DNA of 64,000 bases from an uncultured Candidatus Binatia bacterium (lineage in GTDB: Bacteria > Desulfobacterota > Binatia > UBA9968 > JAJDTQ01): contig OZ219754.1 in NCBI GenBank assembly GCA_964291295.2, forward strand, positions 256,001 through 320,000, in the 5' to 3' direction. Position numbers and translations under genes: made by a program. This document shows, one piece after another, positions 30,439-35,911 of the stretch. The notes beneath the pieces were generated by a model. It did not search any database. It worked only from the letters and a program-made list of their open reading frames with translations, and was not told where the DNA came from. Position 1 is the stretch's first letter. Each line of letters opens with the position of its first letter.

Positions 30439-31185
30439 ATGGCTGACGCTCTGGGCTGGCGGCGCAAGTTCGCGGTCATCGCCCCCTCCACCAACACCTC
30501 GGTGCAACCCGAGTTCGACGACATGAGGCCGCCCGGCGTGACCAACCACTTCAGCCGGATCTGGATACCCGACGATCCCATCCACGACGACGCGGACTTC
30601 GAGCGGTTGATGGTGAACATTCGCGCGGAGGTGGACAACGCCATCGACCGCGTCATGACCTGCAGGCCGGACTACCTGATCATGGGCATGTCGTCGGAGA
30701 CCTTCTGGGACGGCGCCGAAGGAAGCCGGCGGTTGCTGGAGGCGGTGGAACGGCGGGCGGGGGTGCGGGTCGCCATGGGCTCCCGCGCCTGCGAGGCGGC
30801 GCTGGAAGTCTGCGGCGGCATCCGGCGCATCGGCGTGATCACGCCCTACATGCCCGTGGGGGACGCCCAGGTGGCGCGCTTTTTCACCGACTGCGGCTAT
30901 GAGGTGGTGCGCCTCAAGGGGCTCCGGTGCGAGAGTCCGGTGTTGATCGCCCATGTGCAGGCGGACGCGCTGGAGGCGGCGGTCGCCGAGGTGGATGGAA
31001 GCGATGTGGACGCGGTGGTCCAGGTGGGCACCAATCTGGCCATGGCACGGCTGGCGAACGAAGCGGAACGCCGCCTGGGCAAGCCGGTCATCGCCATCAA
31101 CACGGCCATCTACTGGTACGCGCTGCGGCAGAACGGTCTGTCGGACCAGTTCGACGGCTTCGGCAGACTGCTGTCGCGTTTCTAG
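30439..31185 (+). CDS. maleate isomerase / arylmalonate decarboxylase (Asp/Glu racemase superfamily) protein
   Basis: IAPSTNT.VQPEF, RRIGVITPY and GKPVIAIN. Confidence 0.8.
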   Translation: MADALGWRRKFAVIAPSTNTSVQPEFDDMRPPGVTNHFSRIWIPDDPIHDDADFERLMVNIRAEVDNAIDRVMTCRPDYLIMGMSSETFWDGAEGSRRLLEAVERRAGVRVAMGSRACEAALEVCGGIRRIGVITPYMPVGDAQVARFFTDCGYEVVRLKGLRCESPVLIAHVQADALEAAVAEVDGSDVDAVVQVGTNLAMARLANEAERRLGKPVIAINTAIYWYALRQNGLSDQFDGFGRLLSRF

Positions 31186-31386
31186 GAAGGTCTGAACAAC
31201 CCCGGGTTCGCCGGGGCTGAATGAACGAGATCAATGGGTTGCGAGCCTGCCGCTGGCGTGCCGCCGCCTTGTCCGGAACTTCCCGGGGGCAAGCCCGAAC
31301 AAGGCGACGGCGCGGCCGGGAGCGGCTCGCAGCCTGTTGATTCCATCGATTCGGCCCCGGCGAACCCGGGATTGTTCGAACCTTCC
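31185..31386. mobile_element. ~200-bp fold-back MITE with IS5-like terminal inverted repeats
   Basis: Left end GGAAGGTCTGAACAACCCCGGGTTCGCCGGGGCTGAAT; reverse complement of the right end GGAAGGTTCGAACAATCCCGGGTTCGCCGGGGCCGAAT. The interior is also self-complementary. Confidence 0.7.
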
Positions 31387-31465
31387 CCGGCGGCCTGTAC
31401 CGCGGGACGGCCGGCAGGACGGTCGCCCGTGGCCGATGGCACCCGCGCCGGGGACAGGAGAGCAC

Positions 31466-32257
31466 ATGGGCCTGACGGTTTACAGGGTTCCCGGGTGGGA
31501 GGCCGAACCCGGATTGCAACACGGTTTTGTCGGCCGGAGCGGCGGCAACAGCCGGGGCGCGTTCGCAAGCCTCAACGTCTCCTTCACGGTGGGCGACGAC
31601 CCGGTGTCGGTCAAGGACAACTACCGCGCCATGAAACGCGCCGTGGGCATGGACGGCACACCGATGGCGACCATGCGGCAACGACACGGCGACCGGATCA
31701 TCGACGTCGCCTGGCCGTGCAAGGACGCCGGCGAGGGCGACGCCATGGTGACGGACGCTCCCGGGGTATTCATCGGGGTGCTCACCGCGGACTGCGTGCC
31801 CATCATCTGCTGGGGGCATGCGCGCCGGCGAAGACTGGCCGCGGTGATCCACGCGGGCTGGCGCGGGACCCTGGCCAACCTGGCCGCCAGGGCGGTGCGG
31901 CATATCGCCAGCCGCTACGGGATGCGCCCGGAGGAGCTCTCCTGTGCTCTGGGACCGGCCATCGGAGGTTGCTGCTACGAAATCGGCCCGAGGGTTTCGG
32001 AGCCGCTGGTCGGGGCGTGGGGCGGCAGCGCGGAAGCCTCCCTCGAAGGCAGGGACGGCCGGACCTACCTTGACCTGCGGCGGTTGAACACCGCGCTGCT
32101 GGAAGCGGCGGGAGTACCCGGGGAACGGATCGCCAACATCGGCCCCTGCACCGCGTGCAACCCGGCCCAACTCTTCTCCTACCGGCGGGTGTCCAAGAGC
32201 GGCGACGGCACCACGGGACGCCAGGCAAGCTTCATCGGCTGGCGGGAAGCGCCTTGA
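31466..32257 (+). CDS. pgeF: YfiH/PgeF purine-nucleoside phosphorylase (laccase-domain protein)
   Basis: HGF, SLN, Q.HG, GDAMVT, LTADCVPI, HAGWRG, GPAIGGCCYE and LFSYRR. Confidence 0.92.
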   Translation: MGLTVYRVPGWEAEPGLQHGFVGRSGGNSRGAFASLNVSFTVGDDPVSVKDNYRAMKRAVGMDGTPMATMRQRHGDRIIDVAWPCKDAGEGDAMVTDAPGVFIGVLTADCVPIICWGHARRRRLAAVIHAGWRGTLANLAARAVRHIASRYGMRPEELSCALGPAIGGCCYEIGPRVSEPLVGAWGGSAEASLEGRDGRTYLDLRRLNTALLEAAGVPGERIANIGPCTACNPAQLFSYRRVSKSGDGTTGRQASFIGWREAP

Positions 32258-32339
32258 CCCGGGGAAACCGGGAACCCCGGCCCGGGAACGGAACCGGGAA
32301 GAAAGCCGGAAACGGCAAGAAGGTTGGAAGCCCTGGCTG

Positions 32340-32375
32340 AAAAAAGCCCCGGCTGACGCCTGGCCAGCCGGGGCT
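32340..32375 (-). terminator. intrinsic terminator
   Basis: Minus strand AGCCCCGGCTG-loop-CAGCCGGGGC followed by six T. Confidence 0.85.
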
Positions 32376-32427
32376 CGGTGTACTGTCGGAATTGACCAAG
32401 ACCCTCAATTCCGAAAGGCTCGAGAGC

Positions 32428-32466
32428 CTAGGTCTCAGTCACCTCGCAGCTGCATATGTCACTCAT
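32428..32466 (-). CDS. 12-aa micropeptide MSDICSCEVTET
   Basis: AAAGGAGGTGG RBS at 32474-32484, its own promoter and its own terminator. Confidence 0.6.
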   Translation of the reverse strand: MSDICSCEVTET

Positions 32467-32498
32467 ATTTTGACCACCTCCTTTCTCTGCTGGCTTGC

Positions 32499-32527
32499 AT
32501 CCTAAGGAAGAGGAACGTGTTTGTCAA
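32499..32527 (-). promoter_or_regulatory. sigma70 promoter
   Basis: TTGACA (32527-32522), N17, TAGGAT (32504-32499). Confidence 0.75.
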
Positions 32528-33168
32528 ACTTTTGATGGACCTGGTCCGGATCGACTCGGGCGTCTCCCTGCCGGGGACCGCTTCGCGGCGAACGCCGCGG
32601 CATTCCGCACCCGGGTGTCCGGGTCGTTGGCGGCGGCCTGCTCCAGGGCGGTCCGCACGTCCGCCCCGAGTTCCGACTCCTTCGCAAGGGCGGTGACCAC
32701 CGCCACGCGCACCAGGGGTTCCGGGTCTTCGATGGCCTGGAGCAGGCCTGCCGGTACGCCCGCCCCGGCCGACCCGATGTCCCGCAGGCAGTAGACCGCC
32801 ATGCGCCTTTGGGTGGGCGTACCGTGCCGCAGCAGATCCTTCAGGCGCACCTTGACCTCGGTATAGCGCGTTCCCAGGTCGGCGAGCAGCCGCTGTGTGG
32901 CCCACCGGAGATCCGGGTCGAGGTTTCCGAGCCCCCGCTCGAGTACTTCGAGACAGGACGCGGACGGACGTGCGATCTGGCCAAGGGCATAGGCGAGGGG
33001 CCAGCGGGGCGCGGCGCGCAGCCGTTGGGCCAGCAGCCCGGCCACCCGGGCCTCCACCGCGGCCAGCGCCACCAGTTCTTCCACGGCGCGGCGGACCACC
33101 GCCTTGTCGGCCTGGTCCAGCGCATCGAGCAAGGTTGCCATGCGCCGGTTCGGGCATTCGCGTTGCAT
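32524..33168 (-). CDS. HEAT-repeat protein
   Basis: Repeated L.D.DP.VR..A..AL units (LDPDLRWA, EDPEPLVRVAVVTAL, NDPDTRVRNAA). Confidence 0.75.
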   Translation of the reverse strand: MQRECPNRRMATLLDALDQADKAVVRRAVEELVALAAVEARVAGLLAQRLRAAPRWPLAYALGQIARPSASCLEVLERGLGNLDPDLRWATQRLLADLGTRYTEVKVRLKDLLRHGTPTQRRMAVYCLRDIGSAGAGVPAGLLQAIEDPEPLVRVAVVTALAKESELGADVRTALEQAAANDPDTRVRNAAAFAAKRSPAGRRPSRSGPGPSKV

Positions 33169-33186
33169 CGGCGGGTTGCGGACCGG

Positions 33187-34026
33187 CTACCGCGCCGGCA
33201 ATGAATGGAGCAGTTCCCGGCACCGGGCCGGGTAGTCCGTGATGATGCCATCGACCCCGAGCGCCAGCAGCTCCCGCATCTCGTCCACCTCGTTCACGGT
33301 CCAGACATGGACCTCGACGTCCCGCCGGTGGGCGGCGGCCACCAGCGCCGGCGTGACCAGATCCATGCCCTGGTGGCGCCGCGGGATCTGGAGCGCCTGT
33401 CCGGGGGCCTCCCGCGGCGGCTCCTGTCCGGTCCGGAGCGCGGTCACGAAGGTGCGGATCTCCCCGGTGGAGAATCCCGTGGCCACGGGCAGGCCGCGGC
33501 CCCGGATGACCGCGCGTGCGGCGTTCATGGCGGCATCGTCCTCGGCCGCCACCAGCACCTGCTCCGCCTTGCCGCACTCCTCCACGAGATCGAACAGCGT
33601 GTCCATGGCCGGCACCGGCAACTCCTTGATCTCCAGCGTCGCCCGGGCGCGGGGAAGGTCCGAGAAGAACTCCCGCAGGGTGGGGACGCGGATCCCCCGG
33701 CCACGGAACGGATGGCTGGCGCCGCCGTCGGGCGTGAAGCGGAAACCGGCGTCCAGCCGCCTCAACTCGGCCAGGTTCATTTCCCGTACCGTGCCGGCGC
33801 CGTCGGTGGTGCGCTGGACGGTATCGTCGTGGATGACGACGATCTCGCCGTCGCGGCTGGCGTGAACGTCCAGTTCGATGAAGCCTGCGCCATCATCGAG
33901 GGCGCGGCGGAACGACGCCAGCGTATTCTCCGGCATGAAGCCGGCCGCCCCGCGATGCCCCCCGATTCTGGGCGGGGGATCCGAGAAGAATGACGGACAG
34001 GATGGCTGCGAAGGTGCGTCGCTCAT
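33187..34026 (-). CDS. glycerophosphodiester phosphodiesterase
   Basis: GHRGA..PENTL, ELDVH..RDG..VVIHD, WTVN and GVDGIITDYP. Confidence 0.92.
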   Translation of the reverse strand: MSDAPSQPSCPSFFSDPPPRIGGHRGAAGFMPENTLASFRRALDDGAGFIELDVHASRDGEIVVIHDDTVQRTTDGAGTVREMNLAELRRLDAGFRFTPDGGASHPFRGRGIRVPTLREFFSDLPRARATLEIKELPVPAMDTLFDLVEECGKAEQVLVAAEDDAAMNAARAVIRGRGLPVATGFSTGEIRTFVTALRTGQEPPREAPGQALQIPRRHQGMDLVTPALVAAAHRRDVEVHVWTVNEVDEMRELLALGVDGIITDYPARCRELLHSLPAR

Positions 34027-34360
34027 GGCCCGGGTGCGTCGGGTGCGGGATGGAATCGGGGACAATCCTTGAATTTTTGCTCCGCGGCACCTAAGATCGG
34101 TCGGATTGTCTCGTGCGTTATTATCCCGTTCGTGACCATCGTGCGTGACTATCTCATGTTTCCAGGATCGACACCCGTTGTCGATCACCATTGTATCGAG
34201 TGTCGACCACCATCGATTCCTGTGTTGATACCTGTGGCGACCTTTCCGGGTCAAGAGACCGGGCTGCGCACCTGGACGGCAGACCATGGAGCGGAGGCGC
34301 GAGGCCGAAGGGACAGGGGCGGGGCATGAACCACCGTAAAACGGCAGGCAAGGGGCGCTG

Positions 34361-35911
34361 ATGGCCGCGGAGGACCGTCTGCTCAGGCTGAAGGAACTGG
34401 ACCGCCGAGCGCAGCTCGGGGGCGGCGAGGTGCGCATTCGCCGGCAGCACCAGGAGGGCAAGCTGCTGGCGCGGGAACGTATCGAAATCCTGCTGGACCA
34501 GGGCAGCTTCGTGGAACTGGACCGTCTGCGGACCCACGAATGCACCGACTTCGACATGCAGGATCAGAAGATTCCCGGCGATGCCGTGGTGACGGGGTCC
34601 GGCACCATCGACGGCCGCACCGTATTCGTCTACGCCCAGGACTTCACCGTATTCGGGGGCAGCCTGAGCGGGGTGGTGGCGGACAAGATCTGCAAGGTCC
34701 AGGAGCTGGCCATGAAGAACGGCGCTCCCATCCTGGGCATCAACGACTCGGGGGGTGCGCGCATCCAGGAGGGGGTGGTCAGCCTGGACGGCTACGCCCG
34801 CATTTTCGCCAACAACGTCGCCGCCTCGGGCGTCGTCCCGCAGATTTCCGCCATCATGGGACCCTGCGCCGGCGGCGCGGTCTACTCGCCGGCCATCACC
34901 GACTTCATCTTCATGACCCGGAACACCGGGTACATGTTCATCACCGGGCCGGACGTCATCAAGACCGTCACCCACGAAGAGGTTTCCAAGGAAGAGCTGG
35001 GCGGGACCGAGACCCATACCCGCAAGAGCGGCGTGGCCCATTTCTCCGCGGACAACGACAAGGACTGCCTGCTCATGATACGCGAGTTCATGAGCTTTCT
35101 CCCCAGCAACAACCTGGAGGAACCGCCGTTCCGTCCGACCGAAGACGATCCCCAGCGGCGCGACCAGCGGCTGCCGCACGTGGTGCCGGCGAACCCCAAC
35201 CTTCCCTACGACATGAAGGATCTCATCGGCGTGGTGGTGGACGAGGGTTATTTCTATGAGGTCCACAAGGAGTTCGCGCCCAACATCGTGGTGGCGTTCG
35301 CGCGTCTGGGAGGGCGCACGGTGGGCATCGTCGGCAATCAGCCGGCCCATCTGGCCGGGTGCCTGGACATCAATGCGTCGGTGAAGGCGGCACGGTTCGT
35401 GCGCTTCTGCGACTGCTTCAACATACCGGTCATCACCTTCGTCGACGTTCCCGGCTTTCTGCCCGGCACCGATCAGGAGTACAACGGCATCATCCGCCAC
35501 GGCGCCAAGCTCCTGTTCGCCTACGCCGAGGCGACGGTGCCGAAGATCACCGTCGTCACCCGGAAGGCCTACGGCGGCGGCTACATCGTCATGGCCAGCA
35601 AGTTTCTGAAAGGCGACATAAATCTGGCCTACCCGGCCTCGGAGATCGCGGTGATGGGCCCGGAAGGCGCCATCAACATCGTCTTCCGCAGCGAGATCAA
35701 GGAGGCGAAGGACGAGAAGAAGACCCGGCAGAAGCTGGTGAACGACTACCGGAGAATGTTCGCCAACCCGTTCCGGTCCGCCGAGCTGGGCAACCTCGAC
35801 GCCATCATCGTGCCCGAGGACACCCGGCCCACGCTGATCCATGCGCTGGAGATGCTGAAGAAGAAGCGCGACAACAGCCTCCCGCGAAAACACGGCAACA
35901 TGCCGCTCTGA
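34361..35911 (+). CDS. pccB: acyl-CoA (propionyl-CoA) carboxylase, carboxyltransferase subunit
   Basis: QDFTVFGGS, DSGGARIQEG, GPCAGGAVYSPA, DVPGFLPG and RKHGNMPL. Confidence 0.9.
   Translation: MAAEDRLLRLKELDRRAQLGGGEVRIRRQHQEGKLLARERIEILLDQGSFVELDRLRTHECTDFDMQDQKIPGDAVVTGSGTIDGRTVFVYAQDFTVFGGSLSGVVADKICKVQELAMKNGAPILGINDSGGARIQEGVVSLDGYARIFANNVAASGVVPQISAIMGPCAGGAVYSPAITDFIFMTRNTGYMFITGPDVIKTVTHEEVSKEELGGTETHTRKSGVAHFSADNDKDCLLMIREFMSFLPSNNLEEPPFRPTEDDPQRRDQRLPHVVPANPNLPYDMKDLIGVVVDEGYFYEVHKEFAPNIVVAFARLGGRTVGIVGNQPAHLAGCLDINASVKAARFVRFCDCFNIPVITFVDVPGFLPGTDQEYNGIIRHGAKLLFAYAEATVPKITVVTRKAYGGGYIVMASKFLKGDINLAYPASEIAVMGPEGAINIVFRSEIKEAKDEKKTRQKLVNDYRRMFANPFRSAELGNLDAIIVPEDTRPTLIHALEMLKKKRDNSLPRKHGNMPL

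What the first reader, a model, noticed from the sequence alone, without database searches (positions are those of the whole stretch)
32340..32527. Autonomous transcription unit encoding a 12-aa CxC micropeptide with a structured 3' UTR
Seen on the minus strand, in order: TTGACA-N17-TAGGAT, then AAAGGAGGTGG (the strongest RBS I noticed in the window), then ATG AGT GAC ATA TGC AGC TGC GAG GTG ACT GAG ACC TAG (MSDICSCEVTET). Three hairpins follow: a 5-bp stem at the stop codon, a perfect 10-bp stem (TCGGAATTGA/TCAATTCCGA, 32386-32414) and a GC terminator with U6. The terminator lies after the stop and the next gene is convergent, so this is not an attenuator leader. The peptide is hydrophilic and acidic, unlike type I toxins. 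Inference: a highly expressed metal-binding or redox micropeptide, an orphan RiPP precursor modified in trans, or a dual-function sRNA. Gene callers would miss it.
Basis: partly seen in the sequence, partly recalled or inferred. Interest (0 to 1): 0.8.

Follow-up and report, generated by a model that had tools for sequence, protein, structure and literature searches.

The report
Widely conserved translated small RNA
This is a real, self-contained RNA gene of about 150 bases with an unusually long ribosome-binding site and a 12-codon reading frame; it is related to a small RNA so far described only in actinobacteria, it occurs in several phyla, and the frame seems to be kept so that a ribosome unzips the RNA's own fold, not for the peptide.

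Summary
On the minus strand there is a near-consensus promoter and a 15-nt Shine-Dalgarno that pairs with the genome's own 16S 3' tail. An ATG follows, then 12 codons (MSDICSCEVTET), a TAG, hairpins and a terminator.

The unit is strongly conserved. It was found in 39 of 41 related genomes, while its flanks cannot be aligned. It is a remote homologue of Rfam RF02471 (actinobacterial sRNA Ms_IGR-5): 36.2 bits against a cut-off of 45, and one relative reaches 46.7. Look-alikes occur in records titled Actinomycetota, Acidobacteriota, Ignavibacteria, Zixibacteria, Eisenbacteria and Leptospira.

The reading frame is kept. 101 of 104 distinct sequences have an in-frame ATG/GTG/TTG, the stop is always at the same place, and indels come in threes.

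The conserved "CEV" is dictated by RNA pairing:
- The Cys codon pairs with the RNA's 5' end and covaries with it, becoming Arg, Gly or Ser.
- The next codons pair with a segment just before the terminator.

Best reading: a structured sRNA whose micro-ORF lets a ribosome open the fold. The peptide is probably a by-product. The CxC metal-peptide, RiPP and attenuator readings are not supported. The function is still unknown.

The parts
32522..32527 (-). -35 box TTGACA. The stop codon of the upstream HEAT-repeat gene (32526-32524) lies inside it.
   Evidence: Invariant in 20/20 genus loci and kept in the 14 order-level loci. ORF end.
32499..32504 (-). -10 box TAGGAT, 17 nt after the -35 box.
   Evidence: TA...T is kept in relatives.
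32340..32492 (-). Predicted transcript of about 150 nt. Conservation starts at CAGCAG, 7-8 nt after the -10 box, and ends at the U run.
   Evidence: Conservation boundaries. Fold -65.4 kcal/mol, z = -4.28, 0 of 200 shuffles as stable. The 5' and 3' ends are inferred, not mapped.
32487..32490 (-). P1, 5' strand (GCAG), at the very 5' end of the RNA.
   Evidence: RNAalifold, MFE fold, covariation.
32472..32486 (-). Extended Shine-Dalgarno AGAAAGGAGGTGGTC, exposed in the loop closed by P1.
   Evidence: 15 consecutive pairs with the genome's 16S 3' end. Unpaired in the centroid fold.
32428..32466 (-). Micro-ORF of 12 codons plus TAG (MSDICSCEVTET).
   Evidence: Frame, start and stop conserved.
32446..32449 (-). 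P1, 3' strand (CUGC). It includes the second Cys codon.
32436..32443 (-). Long-range helix, 5' strand (GGUGACUG). It covers the Val and Thr codons with neighbouring bases and is itself Shine-Dalgarno-like.
32386..32414 (-). It corresponds to hairpin P2 of the other families.
   Evidence: Sequence. Changes within the genus give G-U pairs. P2 covaries in relatives. The MFE fold of the window's RNA alone prefers another pairing.
32377..32385 (-). Long-range helix, 3' strand (CAGU-A-CACC, A 32381 bulged). It resembles an anti-Shine-Dalgarno and is preceded by the conserved AAUUCC motif.
32340..32376 (-). Intrinsic terminator: 14-bp stem, 5-nt loop, U run.
   Evidence: All nine modelled pairs have changes on both sides in the alignment A2.

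Best explanation
The locus is a stand-alone gene for a structured small RNA of about 150 nt. It is the Binatia-lineage version of a family whose only described member is the actinobacterial sRNA Ms_IGR-5.

A near-consensus promoter makes an RNA whose 5' end pairs with the ORF's Cys codon (helix P1). This leaves a 15-nt Shine-Dalgarno and the start codon exposed in the loop. The next codons (Val onward) form one strand of a long-range helix. Its partner, an anti-Shine-Dalgarno-like CAGY(N)CACC, sits directly before the terminator. The stop codon and a middle hairpin lie inside that helix.

A ribosome that starts at the ATG must melt P1 and the whole long-range helix, and it terminates two to three bases after the helix ends. 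I therefore read the micro-ORF as a device by which translation opens the RNA. Opening frees the conserved AAUUCC...CACC strand and the 5' end, which could then act on a partner or expose the RNA to decay. The peptide is mainly a by-product.

Shown: conservation, homology, the helices, and maintenance of the reading frame.
Inferred: that translation occurs in this organism, that opening is the purpose, and what the opened RNA does.
For: Real gene:
- Present in 39/41 relatives, in 24/24 genomes of the genus, and as a single copy.
- The core is conserved while the flanks cannot be aligned.

Homology:
- RF02471 matches full length at the same place in 20/21 genomes; one relative scores 46.7 bits, above the cut-off of 45.
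- A model built only from the 23 Binatia-type sequences finds all 40 other-phylum loci offered, at E = 4e-16 to 0.09.

Translation:
- 101/104 distinct sequences have ATG/GTG/TTG 3-9 nt after the SD in the frame of GAG-GTG. The other frames give 0/104 and 49/104.
- The stop is always 5 codons after GAG (TAG 96, TAA 4, TGA 1).
- Start codons switch among ATG, GTG and TTG at one position.
- All ORF indels in the alignment A1 are 3 columns long.
- 16/16 and 3/3 further loci keep the ORF.
- Ribosome footprints on Ms_IGR-5 homologues in two mycobacteria are reported in PMC4974804 (passage read).

Structure:
- 88.9% of cells pair against at most 50% when slid (A1); 90.3% against at most 47.3% (A2); 0/500 shuffles reach either.
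- RNAalifold finds the long-range helix unaided in 29 actinobacterial sequences, and the MFE fold of the window's RNA finds P1 and the long-range helix.

Peptide not the target:
- The 5'-end tetramer and the codon covary: CACA:UGUG 64, CGCA:UGCG 11, CACG:CGUG 10. 97/105 are fully paired, and 0/2000 shuffles reach this.
- One Eisenbacteria-titled locus keeps an SD-led 13-codon ORF ending at a TAG in the same place but in another frame.
Against: - There is no direct evidence of transcript ends or translation in this organism.
- The four metatranscriptome runs only hold short assembled contigs of a relative's copy, and one of them runs past the promoter.
- Most loci outside the order were collected with a pattern that fixes the SD and GAGGTG-CTG, so the invariance of those letters is partly circular. 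Only the BLAST hits and three model-only hits are free of this.
- The alignment A2 was fitted to my structure.
- The core GGUG:CACC never covaries. This says nothing for pairing and hints at another constraint, such as binding of the ribosome's anti-SD, of a protein, or the Glu-Val residues.
- A CxxC or CxC spacing recurs in several lineages, so a peptide role is not excluded.
- No target or partner of the freed strand is known.
- A 15-bp SD might slow rather than promote translation (my own knowledge).
Confidence: 0.5

Rival explanations
1. The RNA is a docking or decoy RNA for the small ribosomal subunit, or for a factor that recognises the 16S 3' tail. The very long SD and the start codon serve to hold a 30S subunit. 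Alternatively, the internal SD:anti-SD-like helix mimics the initiation helix. Passage of a ribosome through the ORF and the peptide would both be incidental.
For: - 15 consecutive pairs with the 16S tail, at the top of 13,959 sites.
- A second SD-like block (GAGGUGG) and an anti-SD-like block (YCACC) are both invariant in all sequences seen, including hits not chosen by pattern.
- In one actinobacterial locus the 3' strand reads exactly like the 16S tail core as read.
- The RNA is a single-copy gene behind a strong promoter.
Against: Docking alone does not need a fixed reading frame, yet frame, stop position and 3-nt indels are kept. No binding data exist. The similarity of the 3' strand to the 16S tail covers only 5-7 nt.
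Confidence: 0.2
2. The product is a functional micropeptide: a metal-binding or redox peptide, or a peptide acting on the ribosome. The RNA structure would only tune its synthesis.
For: - The ORF is kept across phyla.
- Cys-rich N-terminal parts with CxxC, CxC or CC occur in Binatia-type, Streptosporangiaceae, Terriglobales and Leptospira sequences.
- The C-terminal x-E-V-(A/T) is invariant.
- Small leader peptides with functions of their own exist, for example peTrpL (review PMC12612679, passages read).
Against: - The Cys before Glu-Val becomes Arg, Gly or Ser together with compensating changes in the 5' end.
- The upstream Cys is absent in most mycobacterial and Ignavibacteria-type sequences.
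- The residues after Val covary with the 3' strand.
- One lineage reads the region in another frame.
- The N-terminal half varies in length (11-19 aa) and in sequence.
Confidence: 0.12
3. It is an orphan RiPP precursor modified in trans, or a cis-acting leader/attenuator of a neighbouring gene.
For: A short Cys-containing peptide, and a terminator after a short ORF.
Against: - Neighbours differ between phyla, and no maturation enzyme was seen in the 20 flanking ORFs scanned. Eleven of the 20 had no Pfam match at all.
- The downstream gene is convergent here and in L021.
- The core residues are not conserved.
- Published actinobacterial transcriptomes list the homologue as a separate sRNA unit: PMC8780764 and PMC8079986 (passages read).
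Confidence: 0.03

Closest known systems
Rfam RF02471, Ms_IGR-5 ('Actinobacteria sRNA')
   Same: - Full-length alignment, model positions 1-184.
- The same order of blocks: 5' CRCR, long SD, short ORF region with UGYGAGGUGGCUG, hairpin, AAUUCC...CAGYCACC, terminator.
- Reciprocal detection with my own model.
- Stand-alone small transcript in actinobacteria.
   Different: - The window scores 36.2 bits, below the cut-off of 45.
- It lies outside Actinomycetota.
- The middle domain is shorter.
- The consensus structure printed with the Rfam match has neither P1 nor the long-range helix, and it leaves the 3' strand unpaired.
- None of the three papers that name the family mentions an ORF in the passages I read.
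Dual-function sRNAs and attenuator-derived sRNA/peptide pairs (rnTrpL/peTrpL; SgrS/SgrT type)
   Same: One short transcript that both folds as an RNA and carries a translated small ORF. peTrpL is 14 aa (review PMC12612679, passages read).
   Different: - Here there is no downstream operon.
- The ORF overlaps the structural core of the RNA.
- The peptide sequence follows RNA pairing.
- No base-pairing target is known.
Leader-peptide attenuators (trp, his type). Recalled, not tested.
   Same: The ribosome's position on a very short ORF decides which RNA helices can form, and a terminator follows.
   Different: - No regulated gene lies behind the terminator.
- No run of regulatory codons is shared across lineages.
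- No antiterminator alternative was identified.
Internal Shine-Dalgarno-like elements that act on elongating or terminating ribosomes (prfB frameshift site). Recalled, not tested.
   Same: An SD-like block inside an ORF a few codons before a stop codon. Here GAGGUG lies 9 nt before the stop.
   Different: No slippery site, no second frame to enter, and no release-factor gene. The role of the block may be purely structural.

Membership tests
Rfam RF02471 (Ms_IGR-5) | Infernal score at or above the curated gathering score (45 bits). | tested here: not met
   The window scores 36.2 bits, E = 9.9e-7, and no family reached its gathering score in the window. Of 21 related genomes, 20 match at E <= 0.01 and 1 (G030) reaches 46.7 bits.
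Rfam RF02471 (Ms_IGR-5) | Homology over the full length, detectable both ways. | tested here: met
   Model positions 1-184 are aligned. Model R1, built from 23 Binatia-type sequences, hits all 40 of 40 non-Binatia loci offered, including actinobacterial ones at E = 6e-10 to 0.09. It also hits 19 of 61 Actinomycetes genomes under strict filters.
Rfam RF02471 (Ms_IGR-5) | Taxonomic range given in the family's name (Actinobacteria). | tested here: not met
   The window's genus includes records titled Candidatus Binatia.
Rfam RF02471 (Ms_IGR-5) | Detected as a discrete small transcript. | tested here: inconclusive
   Four metatranscriptome runs from four studies each hold one short contig (165-362 nt) of a relative's copy. 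Contigs cannot show transcript ends, and one runs past the promoter.
Dual-function sRNA | The ORF is translated. | tested here: inconclusive
   The comparative signs are strong, and footprints are reported for mycobacterial homologues. There are no data for this organism.
Dual-function sRNA | The RNA regulates targets by base pairing. | not tested
   No target search was made. A conserved exposed-on-opening strand exists.
Leader-peptide transcription attenuator | A co-directional regulated gene downstream of the terminator. | tested here: not met
   The next gene is convergent in the window and in L021. Neighbours are not conserved across phyla.
RiPP precursor | Conserved core residues that are modified (here the Cys residues). 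| tested here: not met
   The Cys codon is replaced by CGT, CGA, AGC or GGT with compensating 5'-end changes. The upstream Cys is absent in many lineages.
RiPP precursor | A maturation enzyme encoded nearby. | tested here: not met
   20 flanking ORFs from 10 loci were scanned against Pfam. Matches were HEAT repeats, Cu-oxidase_4, histidine kinase, peptidase A4, SLT, MFS, patatin and others, and none was a RiPP enzyme. Eleven had no match, and some of my ORF picks in high-GC DNA may not be genes.
Type I toxin | A hydrophobic, membrane-active peptide with an antisense RNA. | tested here: not met
   The peptide is acidic and hydrophilic. No antisense element was looked for.

The most novel reading that the evidence does not exclude
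This is one of the very few regulatory RNAs shared across distant bacterial phyla: a 'ribosome-operated' RNA. An internal copy of the Shine-Dalgarno:anti-Shine-Dalgarno helix is locked shut until a ribosome, recruited by a full-length complement of the 16S tail, reads an 11-19-codon frame and unzips it. The RNA would thus report translational capacity. Once open, it would present an anti-SD-like strand that acts in trans on mRNA ribosome-binding sites, or as bait for a factor that handles the 16S 3' end.
Probability: 0.2. Interest if true: 0.85.

Novelty: new variant of a known kind. Interest (0 to 1): 0.66.

Why it matters
The family is catalogued only as an actinobacterial sRNA of unknown function. 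This window shows that it also exists in Candidatus Binatia. The pattern and model searches show look-alikes in records titled Acidobacteriota, Ignavibacteria, Zixibacteria, Eisenbacteria and Leptospira. Few non-housekeeping bacterial RNAs have such a range.

The comparative data give the family a new anatomy: a 5'-end helix, a long-range helix through the ORF, and an obligatory reading frame. They also give a directly testable idea, that translation is used as a mechanical switch and not to make a product. The case is a caution for micropeptide hunting as well, because a perfectly conserved 'motif' (CEV) can be the shadow of RNA pairing.

Cultivable carriers exist (Mycolicibacterium smegmatis, Streptomyces), so the question can be settled at the bench.

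Tried and rejected
- Rfam at gathering thresholds gave no hit in the whole window. The other sub-threshold Rfam hits (BSR1350, SorX, Spot 42, NsiR1 and others) rest on the terminator or are weak. I treat them as chance.
- RNAalifold on the Binatia alignment did not find the long-range helix. It was found by duplex search, by the MFE fold and by RNAalifold on the actinobacterial set.
- Clustering of neighbouring ORFs was swamped by spurious high-GC ORFs and abandoned. The Pfam scans of hand-picked neighbours show no shared neighbour across phyla. Within the order, a Cu-oxidase_4 gene lies beside the element in the two loci checked, in different orientations.
- A possible alternative pairing of the stop-codon region (AGGCUC) with GAGCCU of the inner hairpin is nearly invariant, with one double change. 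This is too little to claim.
- Sequencing runs: 2 runs hold the whole stretch, and they may be the source sample. The small-share rows that I did not lay are no evidence of habitat.
- Laid runs: four RNA libraries from four studies each hold one short contig of a relative's copy, 90-99% alike. One contig of 165 nt is nearly the element alone. Another extends past the -35 box, so DNA carry-over or read-through cannot be excluded. I count this only as a weak hint of expression.
- Phylum scan with a strict pattern: 4 of 301 genomes. Only G000 and G026 are convincing, and 0 of 8 same-class genomes outside the order matched. The pattern is strict, so this is 'not found', not 'absent'.
- Control genomes: RF02471 was found in 0 of 14 named genomes, including Corynebacterium glutamicum.
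- The second 15-bp anti-SD complement in the genome has no start codon.
- Literature: three papers name Ms_IGR-5 or RF02471. Searches for four hexapeptide strings of the ORF found nothing relevant. Two broader searches gave no paper describing this ORF or its helices. Of PMC4633059 I read passages. Of PMC9094748 and the other listed papers I saw only the listing. The original Ms_IGR-5 paper is not held.
- Supplementary tables are closed. The lists of ribosome-protected small ORFs in PMC4974804, PMC4633059 and PMC9094748 could already contain this ORF.

Unpublished genomes:
- G341 (= locus L039) contributes one row each, and two neighbour ORFs.
- G411, G419, G428, G434, G440 and G447 are 6 of the 37 matches. 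G411, G428, G440 and G447 are 4 of the 19 matches.
Full report
1. THE OBSERVATION

- Promoter: TTGACA (32527-32522), 17 nt, TAGGAT (32504-32499). This is the only promoter-like site the consensus scan finds in 31000-34500 (10 of 12 positions; 0.4 expected from shuffles).
- Shine-Dalgarno: AGAAAGGAGGTGGTC (32486-32472).
- ORF: ATG at 32466, 12 codons and TAG at 32430-32428. It translates as MSDICSCEVTET*.
- Hairpin: a 10-bp inverted repeat (32414-32405 with 32395-32386).
- Terminator: a GC-rich stem followed by a U run ending at 32340.
- Composition: local G+C falls to 0.47-0.52 in a 0.65-0.75 background.
- Neighbours: the gene upstream is a HEAT-repeat protein whose stop codon lies inside the -35 box. 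The gene downstream is a convergent Cu-oxidase_4 (PgeF-type) gene.

I read the genome's own 16S 3' end. The SD forms 15 consecutive pairs with it, one of them G-U. Among 13,959 GGAGG-containing sites in the genome, only the antisense of the 16S gene itself is longer. One other site ties, but it has no start codon behind it. 'Strongest RBS' is therefore literally true at genome scale.

2. IT IS A CONSERVED GENE

A BLAST-type search of 41 related genomes finds the 211-nt stretch once in each of 39 of them. That covers 24/24 genus relatives and 14/16 genomes of two other families of the order.

In the genus alignment the stretch from the -35 box to the terminator is 86-95% identical, while the DNA on both sides cannot be aligned at all.

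In the other families the promoter, the SD, a short ORF ending ...CEV(A/T/P)ET-TAG, a hairpin and a terminator are all kept. The middle of the RNA differs in sequence but still pairs.

3. WHAT IT IS RELATED TO

No Rfam family reaches its curated score in the window. With relaxed thresholds, RF02471 (Ms_IGR-5, 'Actinobacteria sRNA') aligns over its full length at 36.2 bits (cut-off 45), E = 1e-6. The same family hits the homologous place in 20 of 21 related genomes, and one of them (G030) scores 46.7 bits, above the cut-off.

A pattern taken from the blocks shared by the window and the Rfam consensus was scanned over one genome per species. By their depositors' titles the records are:
- many Mycobacterium and Mycolicibacterium, plus Mycobacteroides, Nocardia, Saccharopolyspora, Streptosporangiaceae, Actinomadura, Frankiales, Nakamurella, Propionibacteriales and Streptomyces;
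- Candidatus Binatia, and MAGs labelled Deltaproteobacteria or Syntrophobacter that carry the Binatia-type sequence;
- Terriglobales and Blastocatellia;
- Ignavibacteriales, Candidatus Zixiibacteriota and Candidatus Eisenbacteria;
- Leptospira.

One MAG titled Gammaproteobacteria carries a mycobacterial-type copy and may be mis-binned. A contig of a genus relative (G004) has the same length as a record titled Candidatus Binatia, so the window's genus belongs there.

A covariance model built only from 23 Binatia-type sequences (R1) recovers all 40 non-Binatia loci offered to it, at E = 4e-16 to 0.09.

Spot checks of breadth:

| Group searched | Method | Genomes with a match |
|---|---|---|
| Leptospira genus | relaxed pattern | 22 of 22 |
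| Actinomycetes class | relaxed pattern | 37 of 61 (two look like chance) |
| Actinomycetes class | model R1, strict filters | 19 of 61 |
| Ignavibacteria-type class | relaxed pattern | 6 of 41 |
| Window's own phylum | strict pattern | 4 of 301 (only 2 convincing, both in the window's order) |
| 14 named control genomes, incl. C. glutamicum | RF02471 | 0 of 14 |

The distribution is wide but patchy.

What is in print, from passages I read:
- The actinobacterial homologue is an expressed stand-alone sRNA in Streptomyces lividans (PMC8079986) and S. avermitilis (PMC8780764).
- It carries ribosome footprints in Mycobacterium abscessus and M. smegmatis (PMC4974804).
- None of these passages mentions an ORF or a function.

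4. THE READING FRAME IS MAINTAINED

I examined 104 distinct sequences between the SD and the conserved block.
- 101 have ATG, GTG or TTG 3-9 nt after ...GGTGGT, in the frame of GAG-GTG and open up to it.
- The other two frames give 0 and 49 of 104. The 49 are largely one mycobacterial TTGATTGAC repeat.
- In all 101 the stop comes exactly 5 codons after GAG: TAG 96, TAA 4, TGA 1.
- Peptide length is 11-19 residues.

Further signs:
- At one alignment position the start codon switches among TTG, GTG and ATG between close relatives.
- In the MAFFT alignment of the order, every gap inside the ORF is exactly three columns. Two genus members have an in-frame 3-nt deletion.
- Sixteen further actinobacterial loci and three loci found by the model without the pattern all keep an SD-led in-frame ORF.

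Exceptions:
- Two sequences have only ATT or ATA as a possible start.
- One Eisenbacteria-titled locus has a 13-codon ORF that runs through the conserved block in a different frame, yet it also ends at a TAG in the same region.

These counts come from related sequences, so they are not independent trials. Still, the several independent length classes and start-codon switches are hard to explain without translation.

5. THE CONSERVED 'CEV' IS AN RNA STRUCTURE

Three helices involve the ORF.

P1.
- The RNA's first bases pair with the Cys codon and the next G. RNAalifold finds this helix, and so does the MFE fold of the window's RNA.
- Outside the Binatia type, the 5' tetramer and the codon tetramer covary: CACA:UGUG 64, CGCA:UGCG 11, CACG:CGUG 10, CACG:UGUG 6, and others.
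- 97 of 105 distinct sequences pair at all four positions. Shuffled partners give a mean of 76 and a maximum of 84, and 0 of 2000 shuffles reach 97.
- As a result the 'Cys' is Arg (CGT) in 13 of 16 fetched actinobacterial loci, with one CGA, one AGC and one TGT. It is Gly (GGT) in 4 of 22 Leptospira.

Long-range helix.
- GGUG(G/A)CUGnnn, that is the Val codon and the next two or three codons, pairs with nnnCAGY(N)CACC directly before the terminator.
- I found it by duplex search. It appears in the MFE fold of the window's RNA (32443-32436 with 32385-32377, one bulge).
- RNAalifold predicts it unaided on an independent MAFFT alignment of 29 actinobacterial sequences, with pair types CG 18 / UA 6 / UG 5 and CG 15 / GC 5 / UA 2 / AU 1 at its variable end.
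- On the order-level alignment, my full structure has 88.9% of cells paired, against at most 50% when partners are slid.
- On the cross-phylum model alignment it has 90.3% against at most 47.3%, with 27 of 36 pairs changing on both sides. No shuffle out of 500 reaches either value.
- That second alignment was fitted to the structure, which inflates it somewhat.
- The three model-only hits show fresh compensations, for example CCG:CGG and UCUG:CAGA.

GUCC:GGAC (actinobacteria only).
- The end of the SD (GUCC) pairs with GGAC just before the Cys/Arg codon.
- This accounts for the conserved (W/R/G)-T residues.

The terminator and the middle hairpin also covary.

The resulting architecture, 5' to 3', is:
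- 5' end and P1, closing a loop that displays the SD and the start codon;
- contiguous with P1, the long-range helix, which encloses the stop codon and the middle hairpin;
- a conserved single-stranded AAUUCC;
- the 3' strand of the long-range helix;
- the terminator.

The consensus structure printed with the Rfam match has neither P1 nor the long-range helix.

6. HOW IT MOST LIKELY WORKS

Shown:
- a strongly promoted, single-copy, stand-alone RNA;
- a maximal SD left unpaired (centroid fold);
- a frame that is maintained;
- an ORF that covers the 3' strand of P1 and the entire 5' strand of the long-range helix, and stops 2-3 nt after it.

Inferred: a ribosome that reads the frame must melt both helices and then leaves at once. 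Selection would therefore be on where the ribosome travels and stops, not on the peptide. That explains four things together: the frame is kept, the N-terminal half is free to vary in length and sequence, the 'conserved residues' covary with distant nucleotides, and one lineage can use another frame. Opening would free the AAUUCC...CAGYCACC strand and the 5' end.

What that achieves is unknown. Candidates are pairing with G-rich ribosome-binding sites, binding of a factor, or translation-dependent decay.

Two features remain unexplained by pairing alone. The GGUG:CACC core never varies, and the unpaired A of GAG is invariant. Both fit a second role as an internal SD for the ribosome's own anti-SD, placed 9 nt before the stop, or a sequence-specific partner. 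I put about 0.5 on the translation-operated switch.

7. RIVALS

- Ribosome or 16S-tail decoy in which translation is incidental (0.2). It fits the extreme SD and the SD/anti-SD-like blocks, but not the maintained frame.
- Functional micropeptide (0.12). CxxC, CxC or CC motifs recur in several lineages, and E-V is invariant. But the Cys is exchangeable with compensation in the RNA, and one lineage changes frame.
- RiPP precursor or attenuator (0.03). There are no shared neighbours, no enzymes among the 20 flanking ORFs scanned, and the downstream genes are convergent.
- Chance: excluded by conservation.

8. COMPARISON AND NOVELTY

The element works like a cross between a leader-peptide switch and a dual-function sRNA, but it regulates no downstream gene. 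By homology it belongs with Ms_IGR-5. By Rfam's curated cut-off and stated range it is not a member.

I file it as a new variant of a known kind. New here, as far as my searches show (supplements closed; original paper not held):
- the occurrence outside Actinomycetota;
- the maintained micro-ORF;
- the two helices through it.

It may already sit unremarked in supplementary sORF lists.

9. LIMITS

- There are no transcript ends and no translation data for this organism. The metatranscriptome contigs are only a weak hint.
- Most distant loci were gathered with a pattern that fixes parts of the motif.
- Taxon names are depositors' titles.
- Counts are over related sequences.
- Some rows come from genomes marked unpublished; they are listed under Tried and rejected.

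Noticed in passing
window 32524-32527 (minus strand): The stop codon (TGA, 32526-32524) of the upstream HEAT-repeat gene (32524-33168, Pfam HEAT_2) lies inside the sRNA's -35 hexamer. The two units abut with no spacer.
   Followed up: partly
window 31337-32257 (+) and locus L021:569-1432: A Cu-oxidase_4 (PgeF/YfiH-type) gene is next to the element in both families checked. It is convergent and downstream in the window, but co-directional and upstream in L021. The neighbourhood is kept while the element's orientation has flipped.
   Followed up: partly
G000:C1:1501443 (minus strand; outside the window): This is the only other site in the genome with 15 consecutive pairs to the 16S 3' tail. No start codon follows, and the surrounding frame is open for a long way. 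It is probably a chance match inside or antisense to a gene.
   Followed up: partly
locus L129 (record titled Candidatus Eisenbacteria): The homologue keeps the SD, a TTG start, 13 codons and a TAG, but it reads the conserved GAGGUG block in a different frame. The frame used elsewhere carries an in-frame TAA.
   Followed up: partly
loci L160-L165 and (Leptospira genus): All 22 genomes sampled carry one copy behind a TTGACA-N17-TATTNT promoter. Four have GGT instead of TGT before GAG without a visible compensating change at the 5' end, so the innermost P1 pair is lost there.
   Followed up: partly
alignment A1 columns 76-81 with 128-133 (window: stop-codon region 32429-32421): The bases right after and including the stop codon (AGGCUC) could pair with GAGCCU in the inner hairpin of the other families. 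In the window's genus they could pair with the loop of the 10-bp hairpin, as in the MFE fold. This would be a possible second conformation. The pairing is nearly invariant, with one double change.
   Followed up: partly
window 34050-34250: A second low-G+C island (0.50-0.52) lies between divergent or convergent ORFs, with a terminator-like site at 34056-34072 (+), upstream of a carboxyltransferase-like ORF (34361-35911). I did not examine it.
   Followed up: no
locus L184 (G448:C12): In this actinobacterial homologue the SD core is GGGGG instead of GGAGG, the stop is TGA, and the 3' strand of the long-range helix reads like the core of the 16S 3' tail as read.
   Followed up: no
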